From: Dehalococcoidia bacterium
GTDB lineage: Bacteria; Chloroflexota; Dehalococcoidia; SpSt-223
Reading direction: 5' to 3'
Length of the DNA: 64,000 bases
Assembly (NCBI GenBank): GCA_026003895.1
Contig: BPIC01000001.1
Location: forward strand, 560,128 to 624,127
A program made the translations under genes and the position numbers. Position 1 is the first letter of the stretch. Each line of letters begins with the position of its first letter. Positions 35,567-46,303 of this stretch are shown in pieces. The notes under the pieces were generated by a model that was not told the DNA's origin, searched no databases, and saw nothing but the letters and a program-made list of their open reading frames with translations.

Positions 35567-36670
35567 ATGCCAGGGGTGAGCACGGCTTCGACTGATGAGC
35601 GGACGAAAGCGCTCGAGGCGGCGCTCTTGCAGATTGAGAAGGCGTTTGGCAAGGGTGCGGTGATGCGCCTCGGCGAGCGAGCGCTCCGTACCCCGATCGA
35701 GGCCATCCCCACCGGGGCGCTCTCGCTGGACCTCGCGCTCGGTGTCGGCGGCGTGCCGCGCGGGCGCGTCATCGAAATCTACGGTCCCGAGAGCAGCGGC
35801 AAGACCACCCTCGCCTCCACCATCGTCGCTCAAGCCCAAAAGCGCGGCGGCACCGCCGCCTACATCGACGTCGAGCATGCGCTCGATCCCCAATACTGCG
35901 CCACCTTGGGGGTCGACATCGACCGGCTGCTCATCAGCCAGCCCGACAGCGCCGAGCAGGCGATGGAGATCGCCGAAGCCTTGGTTCGCAGCAACGCAAT
36001 CGACGTCTTGGTGATCGACAGCGTGGCGGCCTTGGCGCCGCGGGCTGAGATCGAAGGGGAGATGGGCGACGCCCATGTTGGCTTGCAGGCACGGCTGATG
36101 AGCCAAGCGCTGCGCAAGCTGACGGCAGCGATTGCCAAGAGCCGGACGGTGGTGATCTTCATCAACCAACTGCGCGAGAAGGTGGGGGTGATGTTCGGCA
36201 ACCCGGAGGTCACACCGGGAGGCCGAGCGTTGAAGTTCTATGCCAGCGTGCGCTTGGAGATCCGGCGGACCGAGACGCTCAAGGTGGGAAGTGAGCAGGT
36301 GGGGAGCCGGGTGAAGGTGAAGGTGGTGAAGAACAAGGTGGCGCCGCCCTTCCGGCAAGCGGAGTTCGACCTGCTGTTTGGGAGTGGGATCAGCCGGGAG
36401 GGCGACATTCTGGACTTGGCGGTGGAAGCGGGGATCGTGAAGAAGAGTGGCAGCTTCTACAGCTATGGCGAGCAGCGGATTGGCCAAGGCCGCGAGAACG
36501 CCCGTGAGTATCTGAAGGCCCATCCCGACCTCACCGACCAACTCGAAGCCGAGATCCGGGCGCTACAGGCGCCCGCCGCGGTCGAGAGCCAGAACGGCGG
36601 TGCTGGCGTCGGCGTCGTCGAGCCAGTCTCCTCCAAACCCCAAGCGTCCTTCCTCGCGGACGAGGCGTGA
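35567..36670 (+). CDS. recA: Recombinase RecA
   Basis: AAGGAGGGA lies upstream of ATG 35567. Motifs are [23 protein letters not shown], Walker [12 protein letters not shown], and IDSVAAL and [17 protein letters not shown]. Confidence 0.97.
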
Positions 36671-37095
36671 TTCCGCCGGTCGACGTCGCGGCGCGCGCTC
36701 AACGCGCCGTTCGCCGCGACCTGCCTGCAATCGCCAGCTACGACTACGAGTGGGCGCGCGTGCTGCTCGAGCCAACCGCCCTGCCGGCTGGGCTGGTGGC
36801 GCTGCTCGCCCTCGAAGCGGCCGCCGGGGCGCTTCCTCCAACCCCCTGCCTCTCGGCTTGGCTGCAACTGCTCGCCGCCGCGTTGGGCAGGGACCCGGTC
36901 GCCGTGCAGCTGCGAGAATCACTCGCGCTGGCGATCGATGCTCGCCAAGCGATCCGCGAGCGCCGGCCGGACAGCACCGGTGCGCCGGATGGCGTGGAGG
37001 CGGTCCGAGTTATCGTCGGTGAGGCGTGGCGGGCCGCACGCTGCGCCGAGCTGCTCGCGCGTCGCCGGCCAAATTGCTTGCTTGTTGGCGGCTAA
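36667..37095 (+). CDS. Hypothetical Ala/Leu-rich protein translationally coupled to recA
   Basis: GTG 36667 overlaps the recA stop (GTGA). 142 aa with high third-position GC consistent with coding. I see no RecX-like repeats, so the call is tentative. Confidence 0.45.
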
Positions 37096-37125
37096 GCGCT
37101 ACCATCGCGCCCTGTCGCTCGTTAT

Positions 37126-37271
37126 AACAGAGGCGTCTCCAAGAGGGTGGGTTGAGCACCGGGCCGTTAGACCGGAATCGGGTCCACCGGTCGAGGAGCC
37201 CCGAACCGCCCGCAACCTTCGGGGTTCGGCGGCACGGTCGCTGATCCAGTCACTCGGAGGAGGCGCCTGTT
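37126..37271 (+). ncRNA. Helix-closed structured RNA element of unknown class (leader, riboswitch candidate or 3' UTR)
   Basis: The closing helix pairs AACA..GGCGUCUCC (37126-37140) with GGAGGCGCC-UGUU (37259-37271). Internal hairpins are GACCGG/CCGGUC (37170-37175 / 37187-37192) and CCCCGAA/UUCGGGG (37199-37205 / 37218-37224). An intrinsic terminator follows immediately. Confidence 0.4.
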
Positions 37272-37272
37272 A

Positions 37273-37309
37273 CCGAGGGTCGAGCCCGCTCGACCCTCGG
37301 TTTCTTTTT
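37273..37309 (+). terminator. Rho-independent terminator
   Basis: A perfect 12-bp stem CCGAGGGTCGAG / CTCGACCCTCGG has loop CCCG and is followed by TTTCTTTTT. Confidence 0.8.
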
Positions 37310-37373
37310 CGGCCCGGTTCCGCCGTATAGTACACGCCATCCTGGTCCGGTTGGACAGCCTCCGGGAGGATGG

Positions 37374-39113
37374 ATGGCGCGCACAATCACCATCGCGACC
37401 AGTCAATATCCGGTCACCTACGACGTGACCGAAAATCTCCATGCGATCCTCTCGCGCATTGCCGAAGCGGCTGACCATGGCGCCGACCTCGTGATGTTCC
37501 CCGAGTTCAGCAACCATGCCGCGCTCTATCGGGATCAGGAGCATTGCTGGGAAGTCGCTGTCGATCCCGCTGGCGACTGGGTTGGAGCGATCCGCGAGGC
37601 GGCGCGTCGGCACAAGATCTGGGTGGTGTTCAACGCCACGACGCGCGGTGAGAAGCCGGCGGTCTATCTTCAGAACTACCTGATCGACCGCCACGGCGAG
37701 GTCGTCGGCACGGCGCGCAAGCAGGTGCTGATCTACCTCGAGAACGACTTTATTCAACCTTCTGATGCTGAGGCGACGGTGTTCGACACCGAGCTCGGTC
37801 GCATCGGGCTGTATAGCTGTATGGATGGCATCGTTCCCGAGACGGCGCGCAATCTCGCGCTGCGCGGCGCCCAACTGTTGCTGAACACGCTCAGCTCCAA
37901 TGCCCGAGACGAGGGAGCGCTCCACATTCCCGTGCGCGCTGCCGAGAACCATGTCTGGGTTGCGTCGTCGTGCAAGTCCGGGCCGCTCGCGCCCCACACC
38001 GAAGTTGTGGATATCATCCTTGAACAAACCGGGATGAAGCGGCATCTCTGGAACGCGCCGGGCGAAAGCCAGATCGTCGACCCGAGCGGGACGCCGGTTG
38101 CCAAGGGTGGCTACGACACCACCGAGCTGGTCTACGCGACGATCCAGCCGGACCTGGCCGACGAGAAGCGCATTCCCGGTGTTGGCGACCTGTTCGCCGA
38201 CCGCCGGCCGGATGTCTACCAGCTCCTGATCGAGCCAAACGACCGGCTGCCGATTGTTACCAATCCGTCGCGGCGACCCGTTGCGCCGCTCCGGGCGGCG
38301 GCGATTCAGGTCGGTCTTGGCAAGAGCGTTGAAGCGACGGTGCTGCGCGCCACCGATCTCGCCCACGAGGCGGCTGACAACGGCGCGACGCTTGTCGTCT
38401 TCCCGGAACTGTTCCCCTTCGCCCCCGGCGCCCCGGGCGCCGATCCGGCGCGCGCCGCCGCCGAGAGCGAGGCGGTGCGCCTCTATCTCGAGCGGTTCAG
38501 CGTCGAGCGCGGCGCAATCGTCGTAGCGAGCCTTGTCGAGCGAGAAGGTGACCACTTCTATCACACCGCTTTCCTCTGGGAGAACGGTGCGCTCGTTGGG
38601 ACGTATCGTCAGGTGCACCTGCGCGAGCCGGATCGCGCGTGGGCGACGGCGGGCGACGACGTTCGCGCCTTCGACACCGCTGCTGGCCGGATCGGGCTGA
38701 TGGTGGGCTACGACGGCCTCTTTCCCGAGATGCCGCGCATGTTGGCGCTGCTCGGCAGCGACCTGGTTCTCTACCCGACGACGTGGTTCGTTGACTGGGA
38801 GCCGGACCTCGCCGTGCCAGAGCGAGCAGCGGAGAACCACCTAAGCATCGTGGCGGCGGTCCGTCCGGATTCGCCCATCGCGCGCGGGAGCATCGTTGCC
38901 ACTGTGCCACGCTTCCCGCAGCCGTTCCGAGGTAAGCTGAACCCCTCGTACCTTACGCTCGCCCCTGCCGGATGCGAGGCGATTCTGTTCCAAACTGTCG
39001 ATCCCGAGGCCTCGCGCAATAAAGTGATGCTCCCGCAGACCGACGCCGTCCTCAACCGGCGCCCCCACCTTTATCGGCCGCTCGTCGAGCCGGCCGTTGG
39101 GATCGCACGGTGA
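37374..39113 (+). CDS. Tandem carbon-nitrogen hydrolase (nitrilase superfamily) protein; domain 1 catalytic, domain 2 lacks Lys and Cys
   Basis: 579 aa. Domain 1 has MFPEF (Glu), ARKQVLI (Lys) and IGLYSCMDG (Cys codon 37818-37820). Domain 2 has VFPELF (Glu), but YRQVHL (Gln codon 38610-38612 in place of Lys) and IGLMVGYDG (Gly codon 38706-38708 in place of Cys). Confidence 0.85.
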   Translation: MARTITIATSQYPVTYDVTENLHAILSRIAEAADHGADLVMFPEFSNHAALYRDQEHCWEVAVDPAGDWVGAIREAARRHKIWVVFNATTRGEKPAVYLQNYLIDRHGEVVGTARKQVLIYLENDFIQPSDAEATVFDTELGRIGLYSCMDGIVPETARNLALRGAQLLLNTLSSNARDEGALHIPVRAAENHVWVASSCKSGPLAPHTEVVDIILEQTGMKRHLWNAPGESQIVDPSGTPVAKGGYDTTELVYATIQPDLADEKRIPGVGDLFADRRPDVYQLLIEPNDRLPIVTNPSRRPVAPLRAAAIQVGLGKSVEATVLRATDLAHEAADNGATLVVFPELFPFAPGAPGADPARAAAESEAVRLYLERFSVERGAIVVASLVEREGDHFYHTAFLWENGALVGTYRQVHLREPDRAWATAGDDVRAFDTAAGRIGLMVGYDGLFPEMPRMLALLGSDLVLYPTTWFVDWEPDLAVPERAAENHLSIVAAVRPDSPIARGSIVATVPRFPQPFRGKLNPSYLTLAPAGCEAILFQTVDPEASRNKVMLPQTDAVLNRRPHLYRPLVEPAVGIAR

Positions 39114-39430
39114 GCCGTTCCTGTGCCGAGACGGTCGCCTGCGCGGTCGCGGTGGTCGGTGCGCCCGGCAACCCGGTCGCGTTCCGGCCTCGGGATGGGC
39201 TGCCAATCGCCGAGCCGATCGCCGAGGCCGATCGGTGGCCGCAGGCTGCCCAGTCGAGGATTACCGACCCGGGTAGCGTGTGGATCGGGCCGAACGGCGG
39301 CTTGCCGCTCTTCCGAGACGGCAAGCTGGTCGGCGGTGTCGGCGGCTTGAAAGGGACGGGCGGCGAGACGATCGCGTGCCCAGCATCCGGCCGGCAGGTA
39401 GCTCATCGGGGAGGGAAAGGAGCACTATGA
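39110..39430 (+). CDS. Short GlcG/HbpS-like (DUF336) protein
   Basis: GTG 39110 overlaps the upstream stop (GTGA). 106 aa. The DUF336-like core is VACAVAVVG..GNPVAF and GGLPLFRDGKLVGGVGG. It is shorter and more divergent than typical members. Confidence 0.55.
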   Translation: MSRSCAETVACAVAVVGAPGNPVAFRPRDGLPIAEPIAEADRWPQAAQSRITDPGSVWIGPNGGLPLFRDGKLVGGVGGLKGTGGETIACPASGRQVAHRGGKGAL

Positions 39431-40305
39431 CCCAGCTCGACGAACAGATCATCGCGTTGCCCGGCGACGATAGCGAGCCGCTCGACGAACGGCTGGACGG
39501 CGGAATCCCTGCGTGGCTCGTTCAGACCCGCGTCGGAGGGATGGGCTATCGCCACGTCGGTGACGAGCAGGCGCCGGTTGTCGTCCTCGTTCACGCGGTG
39601 CCACTCTCCTCGCTGGCCTGGGTGAGCGTGCTGCCACACCTCGCCGCGCGGGGCCTCCAAGTCTATGCGGTGGACATGCCGGGCAGCGGCGCGACGCCAC
39701 CAGCGCCTCAGCCGCTCTCGGTGCAAGGCTACGCTGATGCGCTCGGCGCCTTTGTCGATGCGCTCGGCCTCGAGCGATTCGGCTTGATCGGTCACGCCTC
39801 CCATGCAGCGGCGGCGCTCCGCTACACCGTAGACCACCCGGAGCGTGTCGCGGGACTGGTGCTCTCCAAGCTCCCCTATGTCGACGAGGCCGGGAAGGAG
39901 CGGATGGGCCGCGCCACCGCAACGTGGTATCACGCCGACGGCTCGGCAGCGATGCCGCCGATCGACCAATGGAACCCGCGGCCTCAGGTGAACGAGCAGC
40001 GATTTCGAGTCATGACGATGCGGATGAACTTCGACATGTACCGCGCCGGGCCGCGCTCCGCCGAGGGACACAACGCGCTGGCGAGCTACGACTTCTTGCC
40101 GGATCTGGCAGCGCTCCGTGTGCCGACCCGCTTCGTCTGGGCCTCTGGCGATCACTTCATGGCGCACCGCGACCTGATCCTCAACGCGGCAGCGCACCTG
40201 CGTCCATCAATCCGAATCGTCGAGGGTGCTACCTCGTGGCCGATGTATGAACGACCGCGTGCCTGGGCGGAGGCGACCGGCTCGTTCTTCGCGAAAGGGG
40301 GCTGA
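39427..40305 (+). CDS. Alpha/beta-fold hydrolase
   Basis: ATG 39427 overlaps the upstream stop (ATGA). The oxyanion region is VVLVHAVP. The nucleophile elbow is GHASHAAA (GxSxG-like G-H-A-S-H-A). A C-terminal His is present (GDHFMAHRD). Confidence 0.8.
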   Translation: MTQLDEQIIALPGDDSEPLDERLDGGIPAWLVQTRVGGMGYRHVGDEQAPVVVLVHAVPLSSLAWVSVLPHLAARGLQVYAVDMPGSGATPPAPQPLSVQGYADALGAFVDALGLERFGLIGHASHAAAALRYTVDHPERVAGLVLSKLPYVDEAGKERMGRATATWYHADGSAAMPPIDQWNPRPQVNEQRFRVMTMRMNFDMYRAGPRSAEGHNALASYDFLPDLAALRVPTRFVWASGDHFMAHRDLILNAAAHLRPSIRIVEGATSWPMYERPRAWAEATGSFFAKGG

Positions 40306-40645
40306 CGGGGCGCCGCTGACGAACGAACCGTCCGCAGGCAAGGCAGTGACGAGATGCGCCTGCTGCCACGCGGCTTCGGCATGCGGACGTCTCGTCGCGA
40401 CCAGCAGGCAGCGCCGTCGTGCGTGAGGTGGGGTTAAACGAAAGCGCCCCGAGTGACCGGTTTCCGTTTCGAGGACTTCAGAGCATTCGACTTCGGGGAA
40501 AACTCCCCAACCTCGGTTTGCTCAGCTGACCTCGATTGGCTCCTTGCCACTCGGGACATCCTCAGTATCGCAGGTTGCTGGGGCAGGCGCAAGGGGCTGA
40601 GACGATCGGATAGTTATACGAAATATCCTCTGCATGAATAACTGC

Positions 40646-42262
40646 TTATGGTTGTCTCAGCACCTCGTCGATGCGCAGTGCGAGGTGAAAGGCGAGCTGG
40701 GCGCGCGGGTCGTCCGGGTCGCGGCCGGTGATTTCGCGAATGCGCTGCAGCCGGTAGAGCAGCGTATTGCGATGGAGATGAAGCCGTTCGGCGGCTTCAG
40801 TCGGGCTGGCGTGCGCGTCAAAATAGACAGCGAGCGTCTGGACGAGCTGCGTTTTATTGCGCCGGTCGTAGGCGGCGAGCCGCTCCAGCCAATCGTCGCG
40901 GAACGCTTGGAGCAGCGGCGAAGGCCCGAGGCTCATCAGCAGCTCGTCTGCCCCGAGATCGCTGACCAAGCACCACGCGTCCGGGCCAGCGGTCCGGACC
41001 GCGTAGTCGAGCGTCCGGCGGGCGATCCGAAGTGCATCACGCAGGCCGTCCGCGCCGCTCGCCGGACGAGACAGCGCCGCTGCGAGATGGCCGCCCAGCC
41101 CTGCGAGCCCGTCGCGCAGTTGACCAACGACCAGTTGTACCGCCTCGGGCGTCAGGCTCACGGGCAGCAGCACAAGCGCGCCCGTCGCGTCGAGCCGAAT
41201 CGCGGCCGGCAGCGAACGGCGCGCCAGCTCACGCCGGAGCAGCCGCTCGAGGGCGCGCGTCGCCGGCGCTCCTTCAGCGTCGATGCCCCGGAGTGCCAGT
41301 GCCCGCTGCGGCGCGGTCAGGTCGCAGCCCAGCCGTTGCGCTCGCCCGAGAATCGCCGCCTCGCTCGGGTAGCTGCCGGCAAGCAATTCGTCGAGCACCT
41401 CGGCGAGGCGGAGGTCGCTGTCGGAGCGAGCGGCTCGCTCGCGGGCAAAGTCGATGGCGCAGGCCGCGGCAGCCCGGCTGACCGCCAAGCGCTCGAACGC
41501 GCCGAGCTCAGACGGCGCCCCGATGACGGAGAGATAGCCGTCACGGCCATGCGGGCCGCCGATCGGGGCGACGATCCGCGCCAGCCCATCCTGCGGGAGC
41601 GGTAGGCGGATCGTCGGCGGGTCGGAGGCGTTGGCCGCCATGGCGTGCAACCGGGCGATGTCCTCCGCTCGCTGACCGCCGACGAGCGCCGCGAGATCGC
41701 CGCGAGGGCTGCCGCCCGGCGGCAGGCGGATCGCGAGCAGGTTGAGCGCAGGATCTTGCAGCACCGCCGGACGGCTGGTTAGTGCGGCAAGCTTGGCAAC
41801 GACCGCCTCGACGCCCCGCCCGGCGACGACGATCTCGAGGAGTTGGTGATAGAGGTCTTGGCCGACGCGCTGGAGTTCGGCGCGCCGCTCGACGATCGCA
41901 CGCGTCACCCGGGCCTCAAGGTCGCGGGCGCTGACCGTTTCTGGGATTTGGATCACCGGCAAACCGAGCCGGCTGGCGGCACGCCGGGCGTCGTCGTCGA
42001 CCGTCCCGGCGACTGCCACCGCCGCCACGCCGAGGCCCGCGATCTGCTCGATCAGCCGGGCGAGCGTCAGGCGGTCATCCAATTGGTGCATGGTGGCGAG
42101 CGACACGATCGCCAACTCGCCGCCCTTCAGTCCCTCGAATGCCGGCGGGCGCGAGCGCAGCGCCGCCGCCCACGAAACATCGACGCCAAGATGGTCCGCT
42201 CCGGTGACGACGGTCGCATCCGGCGCGAGGGTGGTGTGAAGCAGGTCGTCGATCGTCAGCAT
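40646..42262 (-). CDS. PucR/CdaR-family transcriptional regulator
   Basis: 538 aa. An N-terminal PucR-like sensor region is followed by a GGDEF-like middle region. The C-terminal HTH is AAERLHLHRNTLLYRLQRIREITGRD. GGGAGGAAAG lies upstream of ATG 42262. Confidence 0.85.
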   Translation of the reverse strand: MLTIDDLLHTTLAPDATVVTGADHLGVDVSWAAALRSRPPAFEGLKGGELAIVSLATMHQLDDRLTLARLIEQIAGLGVAAVAVAGTVDDDARRAASRLGLPVIQIPETVSARDLEARVTRAIVERRAELQRVGQDLYHQLLEIVVAGRGVEAVVAKLAALTSRPAVLQDPALNLLAIRLPPGGSPRGDLAALVGGQRAEDIARLHAMAANASDPPTIRLPLPQDGLARIVAPIGGPHGRDGYLSVIGAPSELGAFERLAVSRAAAACAIDFARERAARSDSDLRLAEVLDELLAGSYPSEAAILGRAQRLGCDLTAPQRALALRGIDAEGAPATRALERLLRRELARRSLPAAIRLDATGALVLLPVSLTPEAVQLVVGQLRDGLAGLGGHLAAALSRPASGADGLRDALRIARRTLDYAVRTAGPDAWCLVSDLGADELLMSLGPSPLLQAFRDDWLERLAAYDRRNKTQLVQTLAVYFDAHASPTEAAERLHLHRNTLLYRLQRIREITGRDPDDPRAQLAFHLALRIDEVLRQP

Positions 42263-42290
42263 GGCGTCGCTTTCCTCCCTCGACAGGACC

Positions 42291-42327
42291 GCGAAAGGCG
42301 GAAGAGCGCTCGCGCCCTTCCGCCTTT
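42291..42327 (-). terminator. Intrinsic terminator after glnA
   Basis: On the minus strand, AAAGGCGGAAG-12 nt-CTTCCGCCTTT (an 11-bp stem) is followed by TTTCG. A second 8-bp hairpin TCGAGGGC/GCCCTCGA lies directly after the glnA stop. Confidence 0.6.
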
Positions 42328-42357
42328 TGGTGTCGCGGTCGAGGGCAACGCCCTCGA

Positions 42358-43806
42358 TTAGACGTCGTAGTAGAGATGGAACTCGTACGGATGCGGGCGC
42401 AGGGCGACGGGGTCGACCTCCCGCTCGCGCTTGTACTCGATGTAGGTCTCGATCAGGTCCTTCGTGAACACGCCGCCCTTCAGCAGGTATTCATGGTCCT
42501 TTTCGAGCGCATCGAGCGACTCGGCGAGCGAGCCCGGTGTGCTCTGGACGTTCATCGCCTCCTCGGGCTCCAACTCGTAGAGGTCCTTGTCCAGCGGTGC
42601 GGGTGGCTCGATCCGGTTCTGGATGCCGTCGAGGCCGGCCATCAACATCGCCGAGAAGGCAAGGTACGGGTTGCAGGAGGGGTCCGGCGCTCGGAACTCG
42701 ACGCGGCGCGCCTTGGGGCTGTTGGAGTAGGTCGGGATGCGGCAAATCGCCGAGCGGTTGCGCTGAGAATAGATCAGGTTGACCGGCGCTTCGTATCCCG
42801 GTACCAACCGGCGGTAGCTGTTTGTCGTCGGTGCGGCGAAGGCGAGGATCGAGGCGGCGTGCTTCAGCAGCCCGCCGATGTACCAGCGAGCGGTATCGGA
42901 AAGCAGCGCATAGCCGTTCGGGTCGTAGAAGAGCGGCTGGCCGTTCTTCCAGAGGCTCTGATGGGTGTGCATCCCGGAGCCGTTGTCACCAAACATCGGC
43001 TTCGGCATGAACGTCGCGGTGTAGCCGTTCTGGAAGCAGACGTTCTTGACAATGTGCTTGTACTTGCAGACATTGTCGGCCATCTTGACCAACGTCGCGA
43101 AGCGCATGTCGATCTCGGCTTGGCCAGCGGTCGCCACCTCGTGGTGGTGCACTTCGACCTCGATGCCAGCTTCGATCATCGCCAGCACGATCTTGGACCG
43201 AAGGTCTTGCAACCGGTCAACCGGCGGGGTCGGGAAGTAGCCTCCCTTTTCGCGCGGCCGGTAGCCAAGGTTCGGTGCGCCACCATCCAAGCCGCTATTC
43301 CAAATACCTTCCTCGGAGTCGATGAAGTAGAAGGCGCTCTGGGTGTTGGAGCCAAAGCGAATGTTGTTGAAGATGAAGAACTCGGCCTCGGGGCCCCAGT
43401 AGCTGGTGTCGGCAATCCCGGTGGTTGTCAGGTACTGTTCGGCTTTCAGCGCGACATAGCGCGGGTCGCGGCTATACGCCTCACCAGTGATCGGGTCCTT
43501 GATCGTGCAGATCAGCGACAGCGTCGGGATCTCGCAGGCCGGATCCATGAACGCGGTCGTCGGGTCGGGAATGAGCAGCATGTCGCTTTCGTTGATCTTC
43601 TGGAACCCGCGGATCGATGAGCCGTCGAATCCCAATCCTTCGGTAAAGACGTCCTCATCGAGCGTGTGCGCCGGGATCGAGAAGTGCTGCCACGTGCCCG
43701 GCAGGTCGATGAATTTCACATCGACGAACTTGACGTCGCTCTTGCGGATGAACTCGACGACGTCCTTGGGGGTGGAGAGCCCCTGAACCTTCGCTTCAAC
43801 AACCAT
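42358..43806 (-). CDS. glnA: Glutamine synthetase type I
   Basis: ATG 43806 follows GGGAGA. Motifs are [37 protein letters not shown] and [13 protein letters not shown]. The longer ORF start at 43851 lacks an RBS. Confidence 0.95.
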
Positions 43807-43840
43807 TGATCGGTTCTCCCTTGCCCTGGGCATTCGCCCA

Positions 43841-43869
43841 ACTTCGTACACTGGAAGTTTCTACGAAGT
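43841..43869. promoter_or_regulatory. Inverted repeat ACTTCGTA-N13-TACGAAGT upstream of glnA
   Basis: 8-bp perfect arms (43841-43848 / 43862-43869) lie 35-63 nt upstream of the glnA ATG on the minus strand. It could be an operator or a 5' UTR hairpin. Confidence 0.3.
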
Positions 43870-43986
43870 CAGGACCGAGCACTACTGGCACATTCCCTAG
43901 AAACTCCAGCTCATCTTTGTGCAATACGCCCAAATTAAGCCTAGCCGAACGTCTGACCACCGTGCCAGCCCGCGCTGGGCGGCCCG

Positions 43987-44502
43987 TCAGGGGACGTGCG
44001 ACGTATTGTATTCTGGCGATTTGCCCAAAGCCTGGGACTCAAGAGGTCGCCGAAGGGGGCCAAAGACGTTGGCAACGATATAGCGCGGAATCTCCCAGAC
44101 AGACTGTGGGAGGCTGCGTCGGACCGGCCTTGTGCGGATCGCCCGAAGGGAAAAGCCCCGCCGGGCGCGCCACGCAAAGGAGAAAAACCGGGCTGGGACG
44201 CGGTTGCCCCAGATGTCGAGCAGCAAATGGAGAACGGGCGAGCCAACACTGGCGAGTGCCAGCCGGCTGCCGCCCCGCGCCCACGCTGCCACCGCGACAA
44301 CCGCCCACAGCTCCCACGAGTGAAGGACAAAGGTCAGCCGGATCTCCTCACGACGCGCGTTCAAGATGTAGTCGGGAAGGTGATCGAGATCGATCAGCGT
44401 ACCGGAAAGGAACGTCCAGAGCGCGGCCCGGCGATCGCCGGTCAGCCCCCACTGGGCAAGGGCCAGGGCACCGCTGACGGCGACATGATACACCGGGCGC
44501 AT
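43987..44502 (-). CDS. Membrane-bound metal-dependent hydrolase (YdjM/DUF457-like)
   Basis: 171 aa with hydrophobic segments and His-rich motifs (LIDLDHLPDY, VLHSWE, HLLLDIW). Confidence 0.6.
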   Translation of the reverse strand: MRPVYHVAVSGALALAQWGLTGDRRAALWTFLSGTLIDLDHLPDYILNARREEIRLTFVLHSWELWAVVAVAAWARGGSRLALASVGSPVLHLLLDIWGNRVPARFFSFAWRARRGFSLRAIRTRPVRRSLPQSVWEIPRYIVANVFGPLRRPLESQALGKSPEYNTSHVP

Positions 44503-44537
44503 GGGCCTCCTCGCTGGCCTCGAGAGGGTAGCTCGGC

Positions 44538-45641
44538 TTACTCGGCCGGCCGCGCCGGCGCTTGGAATACCTCATCCAACACGCGCCGCAGGCCGGCCGT
44601 GTCAATCAGCTGGATCGCGGCCCCTTGCGAGGTCGTGAAGCTGTGGCTTGGCACCGTGCGGATAACCATGTTGCGGGTTTCGATGGTAGCGGCAAGGCGG
44701 GCAAGGGCCAAGATTTCCGCAGGCTTCATGTCGGTCTGGACGGTGTCCTTCATCTCGACCATCAGTCGCGGCAGTTTGGGCAGCAGGTCGAGCGTCAGCG
44801 CCTTTTCCCGCGCCGCAATCATCAGTTGCTGCTGGCGGCTGGCACGGTAAATGTCGGAGTCCTGATGCCGGGAGCGCGCGTACATCAGGGCGCGTGCGCC
44901 ATCCATATGCTGCAACCCCGGCGCAAAATAGATGCGCTGATACCCGTAATACTCGGTTGGGTACTCGTTGTCTTTCAGCGGTCGCGGCACGTCAACGGTC
45001 AGCCCGCCGAGCGTGTCGACGACCTTGATGAAGCCATTGAAGTCGATATAGGCAACGAAGTGAATCGGGATGCCGAGGTTGTAGGAAACGACGCGTTTGG
45101 CGAGCGCTGGTCCGCCGCCCGGGTAGCGCGTGGCGCGCGCGTGCACCCACGTGGCGTTGATGCGGTCCTCGCGCCAGCCGCCGCTAATCGGGTAGACCAC
45201 CCAAACGTCGCGCGGGATCGAGAGGATGCCAGCGGAGCCCGTCGCCGGGTCGATGGTCACCACCATGTTGGTGTCGGCGCGGGCCCAATCGCCGCCTTCA
45301 TCCTCGCGGTTATCCAGCCCGATGAGCAGAATATTGACCCGCTCGCGTCCGCCCCAGACCGGCCCGGTGTCGGGCTGCGGCCCGCCGGGGGCATTGAAGG
45401 CCGTTTGGGCCTGTTCGGCGGCGCGGCGGGCGACGTCGGCCCAAGCAACGGCGATCGTCCCGGTCCGCTGCACAAAGGTCGCGCCGAACAAGAGGCTCCC
45501 GCTGAAGAAGAACGAGAGACTCGTGGCGATGACGATGCGGATCGCCCAACGCCCGAGCCGGCGGCGCGTTTCTGGTGATAGCCCGCCAGCGGTTCGGCGG
45601 CGGGGCGGTTTTGGGTGAGACTGCTTGCGATGTGGTTTCAT
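44538..45641 (-). CDS. LytR-CpsA-Psr (LCP) family cell-envelope glycopolymer transferase
   Basis: Start is ATG 45641 (MKPHRKQ...). A basic tail and one TM segment precede the LCP core NILLIGLDNR...RADTNMVVTIDP...ILSIPRDVWV. Confidence 0.8.
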   Translation of the reverse strand: MKPHRKQSHPKPPRRRTAGGLSPETRRRLGRWAIRIVIATSLSFFFSGSLLFGATFVQRTGTIAVAWADVARRAAEQAQTAFNAPGGPQPDTGPVWGGRERVNILLIGLDNREDEGGDWARADTNMVVTIDPATGSAGILSIPRDVWVVYPISGGWREDRINATWVHARATRYPGGGPALAKRVVSYNLGIPIHFVAYIDFNGFIKVVDTLGGLTVDVPRPLKDNEYPTEYYGYQRIYFAPGLQHMDGARALMYARSRHQDSDIYRASRQQQLMIAAREKALTLDLLPKLPRLMVEMKDTVQTDMKPAEILALARLAATIETRNMVIRTVPSHSFTTSQGAAIQLIDTAGLRRVLDEVFQAPARPAE

Positions 45642-46303
45642 ACGCGCTACCGCGGCGTTGCCCCGGTTGCGGGAGTATATACGGCCCGCGAGGCATCTCG
45701 GCGAGGCGGTGGGGCGCGTCGCTGTCGCTCGGGACGAGACGATTGCTGCCAGCGTTGTCCTCCGCCGTCGACGTGGCAGGACGGCGGCCGCACACTCCGC
45801 GAGGAGGAACGCCGAGAGGGTCAATCTTCCGAGCCCGGTTGCGAGCGAGACCTGTTCGGGGAGCGTGCTGCACCACTTGCGGACGATCGCCGGCGTAGGC
45901 GCTTCCCGTCGGAATGATTGGCGAGCGTGCGCACTGTGCTCTCACCTCGCGGCGATGTGGGGAATCGCGCGTCGTTGGGCGACGCATTGTTCCTCCCGCA
46001 CTGCAGCCTTGCGGCCATCCGCCGGGTCCCCCGGCTGGTGACGCCGCCTCGCTCGCTTTGCCGAAGCAGCCGGCGCCTCGGGCGGTAACCGGACGTTCGC
46101 TGCCCCGCGGCGTCGCGTGTGACGTTCCTGATCGCCGTCGTTGCGCCGAAGCCGCACGTGTCTCGCAGGCATGAGCAGGCCTCCGGCGCCGCACGCGCGC
46201 GTCAAGCCGTCCGTTGGATCAGCGCAACCCCTGCAGGACCCTCTCCGTCTTAACACTCAGTTTCCCGTGGCATGCTCGCAGCGCCACCCTCAGGAGAAGA
46301 ACA

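What the first reader, a model, noticed from the sequence alone, without database searches (positions are those of the whole stretch)
37374..40305. Coupled three-gene operon: tandem C-N hydrolase with a dead second domain, DUF336 protein and alpha/beta hydrolase
The three genes overlap start to stop (GTGA at 39110, ATGA at 39427).

The first protein is two nitrilase-superfamily domains in tandem. Domain 1 keeps the Glu-Lys-Cys triad (Cys codon 37818-37820). Domain 2 keeps the Glu but has Gln for Lys (38610-38612) and Gly for Cys (38706-38708). Domain 2 is therefore a built-in pseudoenzyme that probably serves as the obligatory dimer partner or as a regulatory or binding module.

The locus also has a structured leader upstream and a convergent PucR-type regulator and glnA downstream. 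It looks like an uncharacterised amide, nitrile or carbamoyl nitrogen-scavenging pathway.
Basis: partly seen in the sequence, partly recalled or inferred. Interest (0 to 1): 0.6.

Follow-up and report, generated by a model that had tools for sequence, protein, structure and literature searches.

The report
Two-domain amidase with dead half
The first gene encodes a real, widespread but unstudied enzyme type made of one working amide-splitting domain fused to a permanently inactivated copy of itself, but the proposed three-gene nitrogen-scavenging operon around it does not hold up.

Summary
Confirmed: 37374-39113 encodes a 579-aa protein with two nitrilase-superfamily (PF00795) domains. D1 keeps Glu44-Lys116-Glu123-Cys149. 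D2 keeps Glu345 but has Gln413 for Lys and Gly445 for Cys, at the stated codons.

This holds family-wide. In 119 full-length homologues from many phyla, D1's Glu44, Lys116 and Cys149 are invariant and D2 never has Cys. D2 is under the same purifying selection as D1 (dN/dS about 0.1). AlphaFold gives one rigid two-domain body (pLDDT 94.9, pTM 0.93). A single-chain pseudo-dimer amidase is the best reading.

Not confirmed: the three-gene pathway.
- The "DUF336 gene" (39110-39430) is a decaying remnant. It is truncated and internally deleted here, stop-broken in one relative and absent in two others.
- The alpha/beta-fold protein lacks the canonical Ser and His of the triad.
- In two of three same-genus genomes this protein follows recA-ORF142 directly, with no C-N hydrolase.
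- The PucR regulator travels with glnA, not with the hydrolase.
- The upstream structured RNA is real (covariation) but also precedes the alpha/beta gene where the hydrolase is absent.

The substrate is unknown. Two paralogues in the genome sit next to family-5 solute-binding proteins, and one also next to aromatic/N-heterocycle catabolic genes. No paper on this architecture was found.

The parts
37374..39113 (+). Tandem nitrilase-superfamily (C-N hydrolase) protein, 579 aa. It is a member of a widespread uncharacterised two-domain family.
   Evidence: PF00795 hit twice, 219.8 bits. There are 485 homologues with E<=1e-10, and 119 of the best 120 are 520-620 aa. AF2 pLDDT 94.9, pTM 0.93.
37374..38243 (+). 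Domain 1 (res 1-290), catalytically competent: Glu44 (37503-37505), Lys116 (37719-37721), Glu123 (37740-37742), Cys149 (37818-37820).
   Evidence: Glu44, Lys116 and Cys149 are 119/119 and Glu123 is 118/119 in homologues. Foldseek to the P. horikoshii amidase 6ypa gives TM 0.92.
38286..39098 (+). Domain 2 (res 305-575), a conserved pseudo-enzyme domain: Glu345 (38406-38408) is kept, Gln413 (38610-38612) replaces Lys, Asp420 replaces the second Glu, and Gly445 (38706-38708) replaces Cys.
   Evidence: Alignment to 1j31. Family counts. dN/dS 0.08-0.12.
39110..39430 (+). Open 106-codon remnant of a DUF336/HbpS-like gene, a probable pseudogene.
   Evidence: Below the Pfam cut-off. N-terminal truncation and a 20-aa internal deletion compared with genuine paralogues. 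The homologous region in L114/L115 carries an in-frame TAG and a garbled segment, and it is reduced to 136-150 bp in L116 and G003. Not found beside any of 85 related loci.
39427..40305 (+). Alpha/beta-hydrolase-fold protein, 292 aa, lacking the canonical triad: Ala124 (39796-39798) at the nucleophile position, Ser270 (40234-40236) at the His position, Asp242 kept. It has its own conserved Shine-Dalgarno sequence GAAAGGAG at 39415-39422.
   Evidence: PF00561 64.5 bits. Alignments to four solved hydrolases. The motifs GHASHA and GATSWP/GASAWP are conserved in all 7 orthologues.
37134..37311 (+). Conserved structured RNA ending in an intrinsic terminator (stem 37272-37301), followed by a conserved TATAGT (37326-37331). 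It is not specific to the C-N hydrolase.
   Evidence: Terminator scan. The 4-genome alignment and consensus fold show 14 of 57 pairs with compensatory changes. The same element precedes the ABH gene in G001 and G002, which lack the hydrolase. No Rfam match.
40646..42262 (-). PucR-family regulator. It is a neighbour and belongs with glnA (42358-43851, minus strand), not with the hydrolase.
   Evidence: Pfam PucR/GGDEF_2/HTH_30. The PucR-glnA-LCP block is conserved on other contigs in G001 and G002, away from recA-ABH.

Best explanation
The 579-aa protein is a single-chain pseudo-homodimer of the nitrilase superfamily. D1 is a working thiol amidase or carbamoylase with the full Glu-Lys-Glu-Cys set. 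D2 is an ancient internal duplicate that lost its nucleophile (Gly) and Lys (Gln) before the family radiated. D2 is kept under selection because it supplies in cis the partner subunit that these enzymes need (inferred). The result is one active site per chain. The gene is one of three paralogues in this genome. This copy lies between a promoter-like element and a resident triad-less alpha/beta-fold gene, and is probably co-transcribed with it. The DUF336 ORF between them is a decaying pseudogene, and the PucR/glnA genes are unrelated neighbours. The substrate is unknown. The paralogues' neighbours suggest an imported small amide from peptide-like or aromatic/N-heterocyclic catabolism.
For: Shown:
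- Two PF00795 domains.
- Catalytic positions mapped on solved amidases.
- D1 residues Glu44, Lys116 and Cys149 are invariant and D2 has no Cys in 119 homologues.
- Purifying selection is equal on both domains.
- AF2 pLDDT 94.9 and pTM 0.93.
- Each domain matches single-domain amidases structurally (TM 0.92), and no solved chain covers both domains.
- D1 and D2 both score best against the same NCBIfam models (archaeal 'nitrilase'/AguB), far below their cut-offs.
- The family is widespread: all 80 best genome loci are full-length tandem genes from Chloroflexota, Actinomycetota, Pseudomonadota, Acidobacteriota, Myxococcota and Cyanobacteriota.
- DUF336 decay series.
- No terminator-like site between the hydrolase and ABH.
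- A conserved TATAGT lies upstream of the hydrolase here and upstream of ABH in G002.
- Paralogues lie next to SBP_bac_5. One also lies next to IclR, a NicC/3-hydroxybenzoate-6-hydroxylase-like monooxygenase and a bicupin.

Inferred:
- D2 occupies the canonical dimer interface.
- The enzyme acts on amides rather than nitriles.
- The hydrolase and ABH are co-transcribed.
Against:
- Glu345 is 91% conserved and Gln413 is the majority residue, which could also mean a retained ligand pocket.
- 12 of 119 homologues have Ser at position 445.
- The substrate inference rests on paralogues only 62% identical, not on this copy's own neighbours.
Confidence: 0.68

Rival explanations
1. One reading: a translationally coupled three-gene operon (tandem hydrolase, DUF336 protein, alpha/beta hydrolase) forms an amide/nitrile nitrogen-scavenging pathway. 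It is controlled by the upstream leader and the PucR regulator and feeds glnA.
For: - The reading frames abut through GTGA and ATGA.
- All three genes are on the same strand with no terminator-like site between them.
- The nearest relatives keep hydrolase-ABH-PucR-glnA.
- An amidase releases ammonia, which is the substrate of GlnA (general knowledge).
Against: - DUF336 is truncated here, stop-broken in L114/L115 and deleted in G003/L116.
- ABH lacks Ser and His of the triad.
- G001 and G002 have ABH without the hydrolase, and keep PucR-glnA-LCP elsewhere.
- The RNA element precedes ABH in those genomes.
- No DUF336 and no PucR were found beside 85 other family loci.
Confidence: 0.07
2. D2 is not only a structural partner. 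It is a ligand-binding or allosteric module that uses its degenerate active-site pocket (Glu345, Gln413, His415) to sense or hold substrate or product.
For: - Glu345 is kept in 108/119, Gln413 in 80/119 and His415 in 119/119.
- D2 is under purifying selection equal to D1.
Against: - The invariant D2 residues (His415, Glu452, Arg484, Glu487, Asn488) have direct counterparts in D1 and in single-domain relatives, so they look like fold motifs.
- The position of the second Glu is highly variable (H47/D25/E21/Y12/F8).
- The Lys position also takes Leu, Met or Pro.
Confidence: 0.17
3. The hydrolase and the alpha/beta protein carry out two consecutive hydrolytic steps of a maleamate-type ring-cleavage pathway (a deformylase followed by an amidase, as NicD and NicF do).
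For: Family members in other phyla and the C4 paralogue lie near alpha/beta-fold genes, NicC-like FAD monooxygenases, isochorismatase-family amidases and maleate-isomerase-like genes.
Against: - The window's ABH has no nucleophile or His.
- It is only 32% identical to the ABH of the C4 cluster and ranks third among 30 paralogues, so the link is generic.
- It occurs without the hydrolase in G001 and G002.
- No monooxygenase or dioxygenase gene is visible among the ORFs of 34-45 kb of the window (only five of them were scanned against Pfam).
Confidence: 0.08

Closest known systems
Pyrococcus horikoshii PH0642 amidase (PDB 1j31, 6ypa, 3ivz) and the Nesterenkonia AN1 amidase, which are single-domain 'class 13'-type nitrilase-superfamily amidases
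   Same: The alpha-beta-beta-alpha fold matches (Foldseek TM 0.92). D1 has the same Glu-Lys-Glu-Cys set and both domains have the same RRPxxY C-terminal tail. These are the best sequence matches for D2 (E 1e-23).
   Different: They are about 260-aa single-domain proteins that form homodimers with two active sites (my knowledge). Here two domains are fused in one chain and the second has Gln and Gly in place of Lys and Cys.
N-carbamoylputrescine amidohydrolase (AguB/CPA, PDB 5h8i; TIGR03381)
   Same: It is the second-best profile and structure match for both domains.
   Different: The score is 154 bits against a 410-bit cut-off, so this is not an orthologue. There are no agmatine or polyamine genes nearby.
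CDD subgroup 'nitrilase_1_R1/R2' (proteins with two nitrilase domains), recalled from memory and not checkable with these tools
   Same: It has the same two-domain architecture, catalogued as uncharacterised.
   Different: I could not verify the entry or whether it notes the dead second domain. No paper on the architecture was found.
Tandem catalytic/pseudo-catalytic domain proteins (receptor tyrosine phosphatase D1-D2, JAK kinase-pseudokinase)
   Same: They work alike: an active domain is fused to an inactivated duplicate that is retained under selection.
   Different: They are unrelated folds and are eukaryotic signalling proteins. Here the likely role of the dead domain is to replace an obligate homodimer partner.
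DUF336 / HbpS-like / GlcG (PF03928)
   Same: ORF106 keeps the VAVV...G and GG.PL...G.LVGG.G motifs and is 44% identical over residues 38-99 to the genuine copy on contig C5.
   Different: It scores below the Pfam cut-off, and is truncated and internally deleted. Its counterparts in relatives are broken or gone.

Membership tests
Nitrilase superfamily (PF00795, C-N hydrolase) | Profile match above the curated cut-off | tested here: met
   219.8 bits against a 23.2-bit cut-off, two stretches.
Nitrilase superfamily (PF00795, C-N hydrolase) | Alpha-beta-beta-alpha sandwich fold | tested here: met
   The AF2 model (pLDDT 94.9) matches 6ypa, 3ivz and 1j31 with target TM 0.91-0.92.
Nitrilase superfamily (PF00795, C-N hydrolase) | Glu-Lys-Cys triad (plus second Glu) in domain 1 | tested here: met
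   Glu44, Lys116, Glu123 and Cys149. They are invariant or nearly so in 119 homologues.
Nitrilase superfamily (PF00795, C-N hydrolase) | Glu-Lys-Cys triad in domain 2 | tested here: not met
   Glu345, Gln413 and Gly445. 0/119 homologues have Cys here and there is no conserved Cys elsewhere in D2.
Nitrilase superfamily (PF00795, C-N hydrolase) | Dimer through the canonical two-fold interface (here D1 with D2 in cis) | tested here: inconclusive
   pTM 0.93 shows a fixed domain arrangement, and the helices after the Cys position are the best conserved in D1 and among the best conserved in D2.
Branch-1 nitrilase / named amidase equivalogs (NF040852, TIGR04048, TIGR03381, NF009802, NF009803, NF033621) | Score above the curated equivalog cut-off | tested here: not met
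   The best is NF040852 at 170.5 bits against 500. All others are far below their cut-offs.
DUF336 / HbpS-like (PF03928) | Full-length profile match above the cut-off | tested here: not met
   19.6 bits against 25, covering profile positions 84-110 of 128 only. The genome-wide PF03928 search finds three other genes but not this ORF.
Alpha/beta hydrolase (PF00561) | Fold-level profile match | tested here: met
   64.5 bits against 25.8.
Alpha/beta hydrolase (PF00561) | Nucleophile-His-acid triad (G-x-S/D-x-G elbow and C-terminal His) | tested here: not met
   The elbow reads G-H-A-S-H-A, with Ala124 aligned to Ser or Asp of four solved hydrolases. Ser270 is aligned to the catalytic His and Asp242 is kept. 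This is conserved in 7 orthologues.
Conserved operon (hydrolase-DUF336-ABH) | Same gene order in relatives | tested here: not met
   No intact trio exists anywhere. The hydrolase-ABH pair occurs only in G003, L114-L116. G001 and G002 lack the hydrolase at this site.
Conserved operon (hydrolase-DUF336-ABH) | Co-transcription | not testable with these tools
The only indirect evidence is that no terminator-like site lies between the genes.

The most novel reading that the evidence does not exclude
The tandem live/dead C-N hydrolases are a distinct, ancient enzyme class. Fusion to a dead partner fixes a one-active-site pseudo-dimer whose degenerate second pocket helps bind large or bidentate substrates. 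The family's main clade would be the amide- or lactam-opening enzyme of an undescribed, widely distributed bacterial pathway. That pathway's gene cluster carries two RCC-reductase/bilin-reductase-like proteins, a Rieske oxygenase, an acyl-CoA-dehydrogenase-like flavoenzyme and maleamate-pathway-like enzymes, which would suit degradation of tetrapyrrole-derived or other N-heterocyclic compounds.
Probability: 0.12. Interest if true: 0.75.

Novelty: new variant of a known kind. Interest (0 to 1): 0.42.

Why it matters
Nitrilase-superfamily enzymes are used as biocatalysts and are known as homo-oligomers built from two-fold dimers. A large natural family replaces one subunit of that dimer with a fused, permanently inactive copy, and the copy is kept under selection as strong as on the active domain. 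This gives a clean system for asking what the partner subunit contributes to catalysis and assembly. It also marks hundreds of proteins annotated only as "carbon-nitrogen hydrolase family protein" as one-active-site enzymes. For annotation, the locus is a caution: an open, frame-abutting ORF is a pseudogene remnant, and the neighbouring "hydrolase" has no catalytic triad.

Tried and rejected
- Rfam scan of 36500-44500 at E<=1 gave no hit, so the upstream RNA belongs to no described family.
- The search for related loci with the 32-sequence alignment failed because it had no conserved stretch. It worked with an 11-sequence alignment.
- An exact-sequence look-up of P0005 found nothing, because records of the window's own genome are withheld.
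- I first considered the ABH a conserved partner of the hydrolase, because single-linkage clustering put it with ABH genes in about 18 family loci. I rejected this. It is only 25-32% identical to them, ranks them no better than other paralogues, has a different elbow motif (GHASHA vs GHHTGA) and lacks His.
- I considered that the RCC-reductase/Rieske cluster explains this gene and rejected that for the window copy. The cluster is confined to the other major clade of the family tree.
- Literature searches for tandem or two-domain nitrilases, CDD identifiers, and bilin-reductase-like clusters in heterotrophs found nothing relevant.
- No solved structure matches the bicupin of the paralogue cluster.
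Full report
**Observation**

The window holds three same-strand ORFs at 37374-39113 (579 aa), 39110-39430 (106 aa) and 39427-40305 (292 aa from the ATG). The overlaps GTGA (39110-39113) and ATGA (39427-39430) are there.

The first protein matches Pfam CN_hydrolase twice (219.8 bits). Its halves are 29% identical (E 2e-19).

HMMER alignments to the P. horikoshii amidase (1j31/6ypa) place Gln413 on the catalytic Lys and Gly445 on the catalytic Cys. Glu345 is retained and Asp420 takes the place of the second Glu. D1 has Glu44, Lys116, Glu123 and Cys149.

**The dead second domain is a family trait, not a local accident**

A protein search returned 485 relatives with E<=1e-10. Of the best 120, 119 are 520-620 aa.
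- D1: Glu44, Lys116 and Cys149 are 119/119 and Glu123 is 118/119.
- D2, Cys position: G100, S12, A4, D1, T1, P1, and never Cys.
- D2, Lys position: Q80, K24, L8, M6, P1.
- D2, Glu345: 108/119.
- No other D2 column carries a conserved Cys, so there is no shifted nucleophile.

All 80 best loci are full-length tandem genes from Chloroflexota, Actinomycetota, Pseudomonadota, Acidobacteriota, Myxococcota and Cyanobacteriota.

D2 is less conserved than D1 (mean pairwise identity 34% vs 47.5%), but it is not decaying. Among the window gene and its three orthologues, dN/dS is 0.07-0.11 for D1 and 0.08-0.12 for D2.

**Structure**

AlphaFold2 on a 32-sequence alignment gives mean pLDDT 94.9 and pTM 0.93, with each half an alpha-beta-beta-alpha unit. 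For a two-domain chain, this pTM means a fixed mutual arrangement.

Foldseek finds only single-domain amidases. These include the P. horikoshii amidase (target TM 0.92), plant N-carbamoylputrescine amidohydrolase and the Nesterenkonia amidase. Query TM never exceeds 0.44, so no solved chain covers both domains.

Both domains score best against the same NCBIfam models (archaeal 'nitrilase' and AguB), far below their cut-offs. This fits an internal duplication of an unclassified amidase-type ancestor.

The two helices after the Cys position (155-163 and 179-192 in D1; 452-459 and 475-488 in D2) are highly conserved in both domains. In D1 only the short 149-152 helix and strand 233-235 score higher; in D2 they are two of the three best-conserved elements. 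In solved superfamily members these helices make the two-fold dimer interface (my knowledge).

I therefore read the protein as a single-chain pseudo-dimer with one active site.

**The middle ORF is a pseudogene remnant**

- Its Pfam match to HbpS-like/DUF336 is 19.6 bits, below the 25-bit cut-off, and covers only profile positions 84-110.
- The genome has three genuine DUF336 genes. The profile search of the genome does not pick up ORF106.
- Against those genes, ORF106 lacks the first helix and about 20 internal residues.
- In metagenomic contigs whose hydrolase is 86% identical (L114, L115), the same position holds a nearly full-length DUF336 homologue. It is 47% identical to the contig-C5 copy but has an in-frame TAG and a garbled segment.
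- In G003 (84% identical hydrolase) and L116 (85%), only 150 and 136 bp remain, with no similarity.
- No DUF336 gene lies beside any of 85 other family loci.
- The frame still shows a GC3 bias (0.78) but an abnormal GC2 (0.63 vs 0.47-0.50 in real genes).
- Long open frames are common in this 65-70% GC DNA.

The start/stop overlaps are therefore a lineage-specific leftover of an ancestral hydrolase-DUF336 pair, not evidence of a working coupled gene.

**The third gene is an alpha/beta-fold protein without the triad**

Alignments to four solved hydrolases put Ala124 on the nucleophile (the elbow reads G-H-A-S-H-A) and Ser270 on the catalytic His. Asp242 is kept. All seven orthologues share GHASHA/GHATHA and GATSWP/GASAWP. 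It is well conserved (77-89% among the one-to-one orthologues; 52% for G002's adjacent tandem duplicate), so it is presumably functional. It is unlikely to be a classical serine hydrolase.

**Synteny**

The window's genus has four genomes in the collection.
- G003 has recA-ORF142-hydrolase-ABH-PucR-glnA-LCP, like the window.
- G001 and G002 have recA-ORF142-ABH followed by a PDZ protein, with no hydrolase.
- G001 and G002 keep PucR-glnA (with LCP also matched in G002; the G001 contig ends inside glnA) on other contigs. The regulator therefore belongs with glnA.
- Across 201 genomes of the class, the family was found in only five: the four of this genus and one other.
- The genome has three paralogues (62% identical).

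A maximum-likelihood tree places the window copy with its G003 orthologue. This pair is sister to the other Chloroflexota copies, inside a 24-row clade.

The paralogues sit next to SBP_bac_5 solute-binding genes. The C4 copy also sits next to IclR, an ABH with a GHHTGA elbow, a NicC/3-hydroxybenzoate-6-hydroxylase-like FAD monooxygenase and a bicupin. That hints at small imported amides from peptide-like or aromatic/N-heterocyclic catabolism. It does not fix the substrate of the window copy.

**The 'structured leader'**

The 37134-37311 element is real. It is 80-90% conserved in all four genus genomes, while the flanking ORF142 protein is only 48-67% identical. The consensus fold has 57 pairs, 14 of them with compensatory changes, and it ends in a terminator (stem 37272-37301). 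It has no Rfam match.

The element precedes ABH directly where the hydrolase is absent. A conserved TATAGT follows it in three of the four genomes. It is therefore not a hydrolase-specific leader.

The shared promoter-like element upstream of the hydrolase here and of ABH in G002, together with the absence of a terminator-like site between hydrolase and ABH, makes co-transcription plausible.

**Comparison with what is known, and verdict**

The protein is a member of the nitrilase superfamily by profile, fold and D1 chemistry. It passes no named equivalog.

No paper on two-domain nitrilase-superfamily proteins was found in the library. From memory, CDD lists an uncharacterised subgroup with two nitrilase domains, so the architecture as such is probably catalogued.

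What appears undescribed is that the second domain is universally dead yet as constrained as the first. I rate this a new variant of a known kind, of moderate interest.

The operon/pathway part of the finding is not supported.

Noticed in passing
window 39427-40305 (codons 39796-39798 and 40234-40236): The alpha/beta-hydrolase-fold protein has Ala at the nucleophile position (elbow GHASHA) and Ser at the catalytic His position. This is conserved in all seven orthologues, so the protein is probably a non-catalytic or non-canonical member of the fold.
   Followed up: partly
window 37134-37311: A conserved structured RNA of about 175 nt with its own terminator lies downstream of recA-ORF142. Among four genomes, 14 of 57 pairs show compensatory changes. 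It has no Rfam match. It precedes ABH in genomes that lack the hydrolase, and a TTATAA box lies just upstream of its closing helix. It may be an sRNA gene or a leader for the downstream gene.
   Followed up: partly
L020, L021, L022, L032, L045, L055 (gammaproteobacteria); L052, L060, L066, L074 (actinomycetes); L025 (Chloroflexota): The larger clade of the tandem-hydrolase family sits in a conserved cluster of 12-15 genes. The cluster includes RCC-reductase-like and bilin-reductase-like proteins (usually directly downstream), a Rieske/VanA-type oxygenase, a 320-aa protein with no Pfam match, an acyl-CoA-dehydrogenase-like protein, two aldehyde dehydrogenases, an ABH, an isochorismatase-family protein, a FAD monooxygenase, a maleate-isomerase/Amdase-like protein and an MFS transporter. 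I found no paper describing it.
   Followed up: partly
G000:C4:440289-442007 (L010) and G000:C8:74768-76480 (L011): There are two further paralogues of the tandem hydrolase in the same genome (62% identical). The C4 copy is next to an SBP_bac_5 gene. For the C8 copy this is inferred from its orthologue in L003; the ORF at that position in L011 was not checked. The C4 copy also neighbours IclR, an ABH, a NicC-like monooxygenase and a bicupin with no PDB or NCBIfam match.
   Followed up: partly
L010:13660-14487, L012:5929-6750, L064:14575-15402: The ABH genes that accompany other family members have the elbow G-H-H-T-G-A, with His at the usual nucleophile position. This is another non-canonical motif.
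   Followed up: no
window 40646-45824; L119, L120: The PucR-type regulator, glnA and the LCP gene form a block. It is conserved in G003 and G002 and, as far as the contig reaches (PucR-glnA), in G001, regardless of what lies beside it. The regulator is probably tied to glnA.
   Followed up: partly
window 36667-37095: The 142-aa ORF overlapping the recA stop is conserved after recA in G001-G003 and in metagenomic contigs (48-67% identity). It is therefore a real gene, with no Pfam match.
   Followed up: partly
L111:10876-12625 (G002): G002 carries a tandem duplicate of the triad-less ABH (51% identical) directly after the first copy.
   Followed up: no
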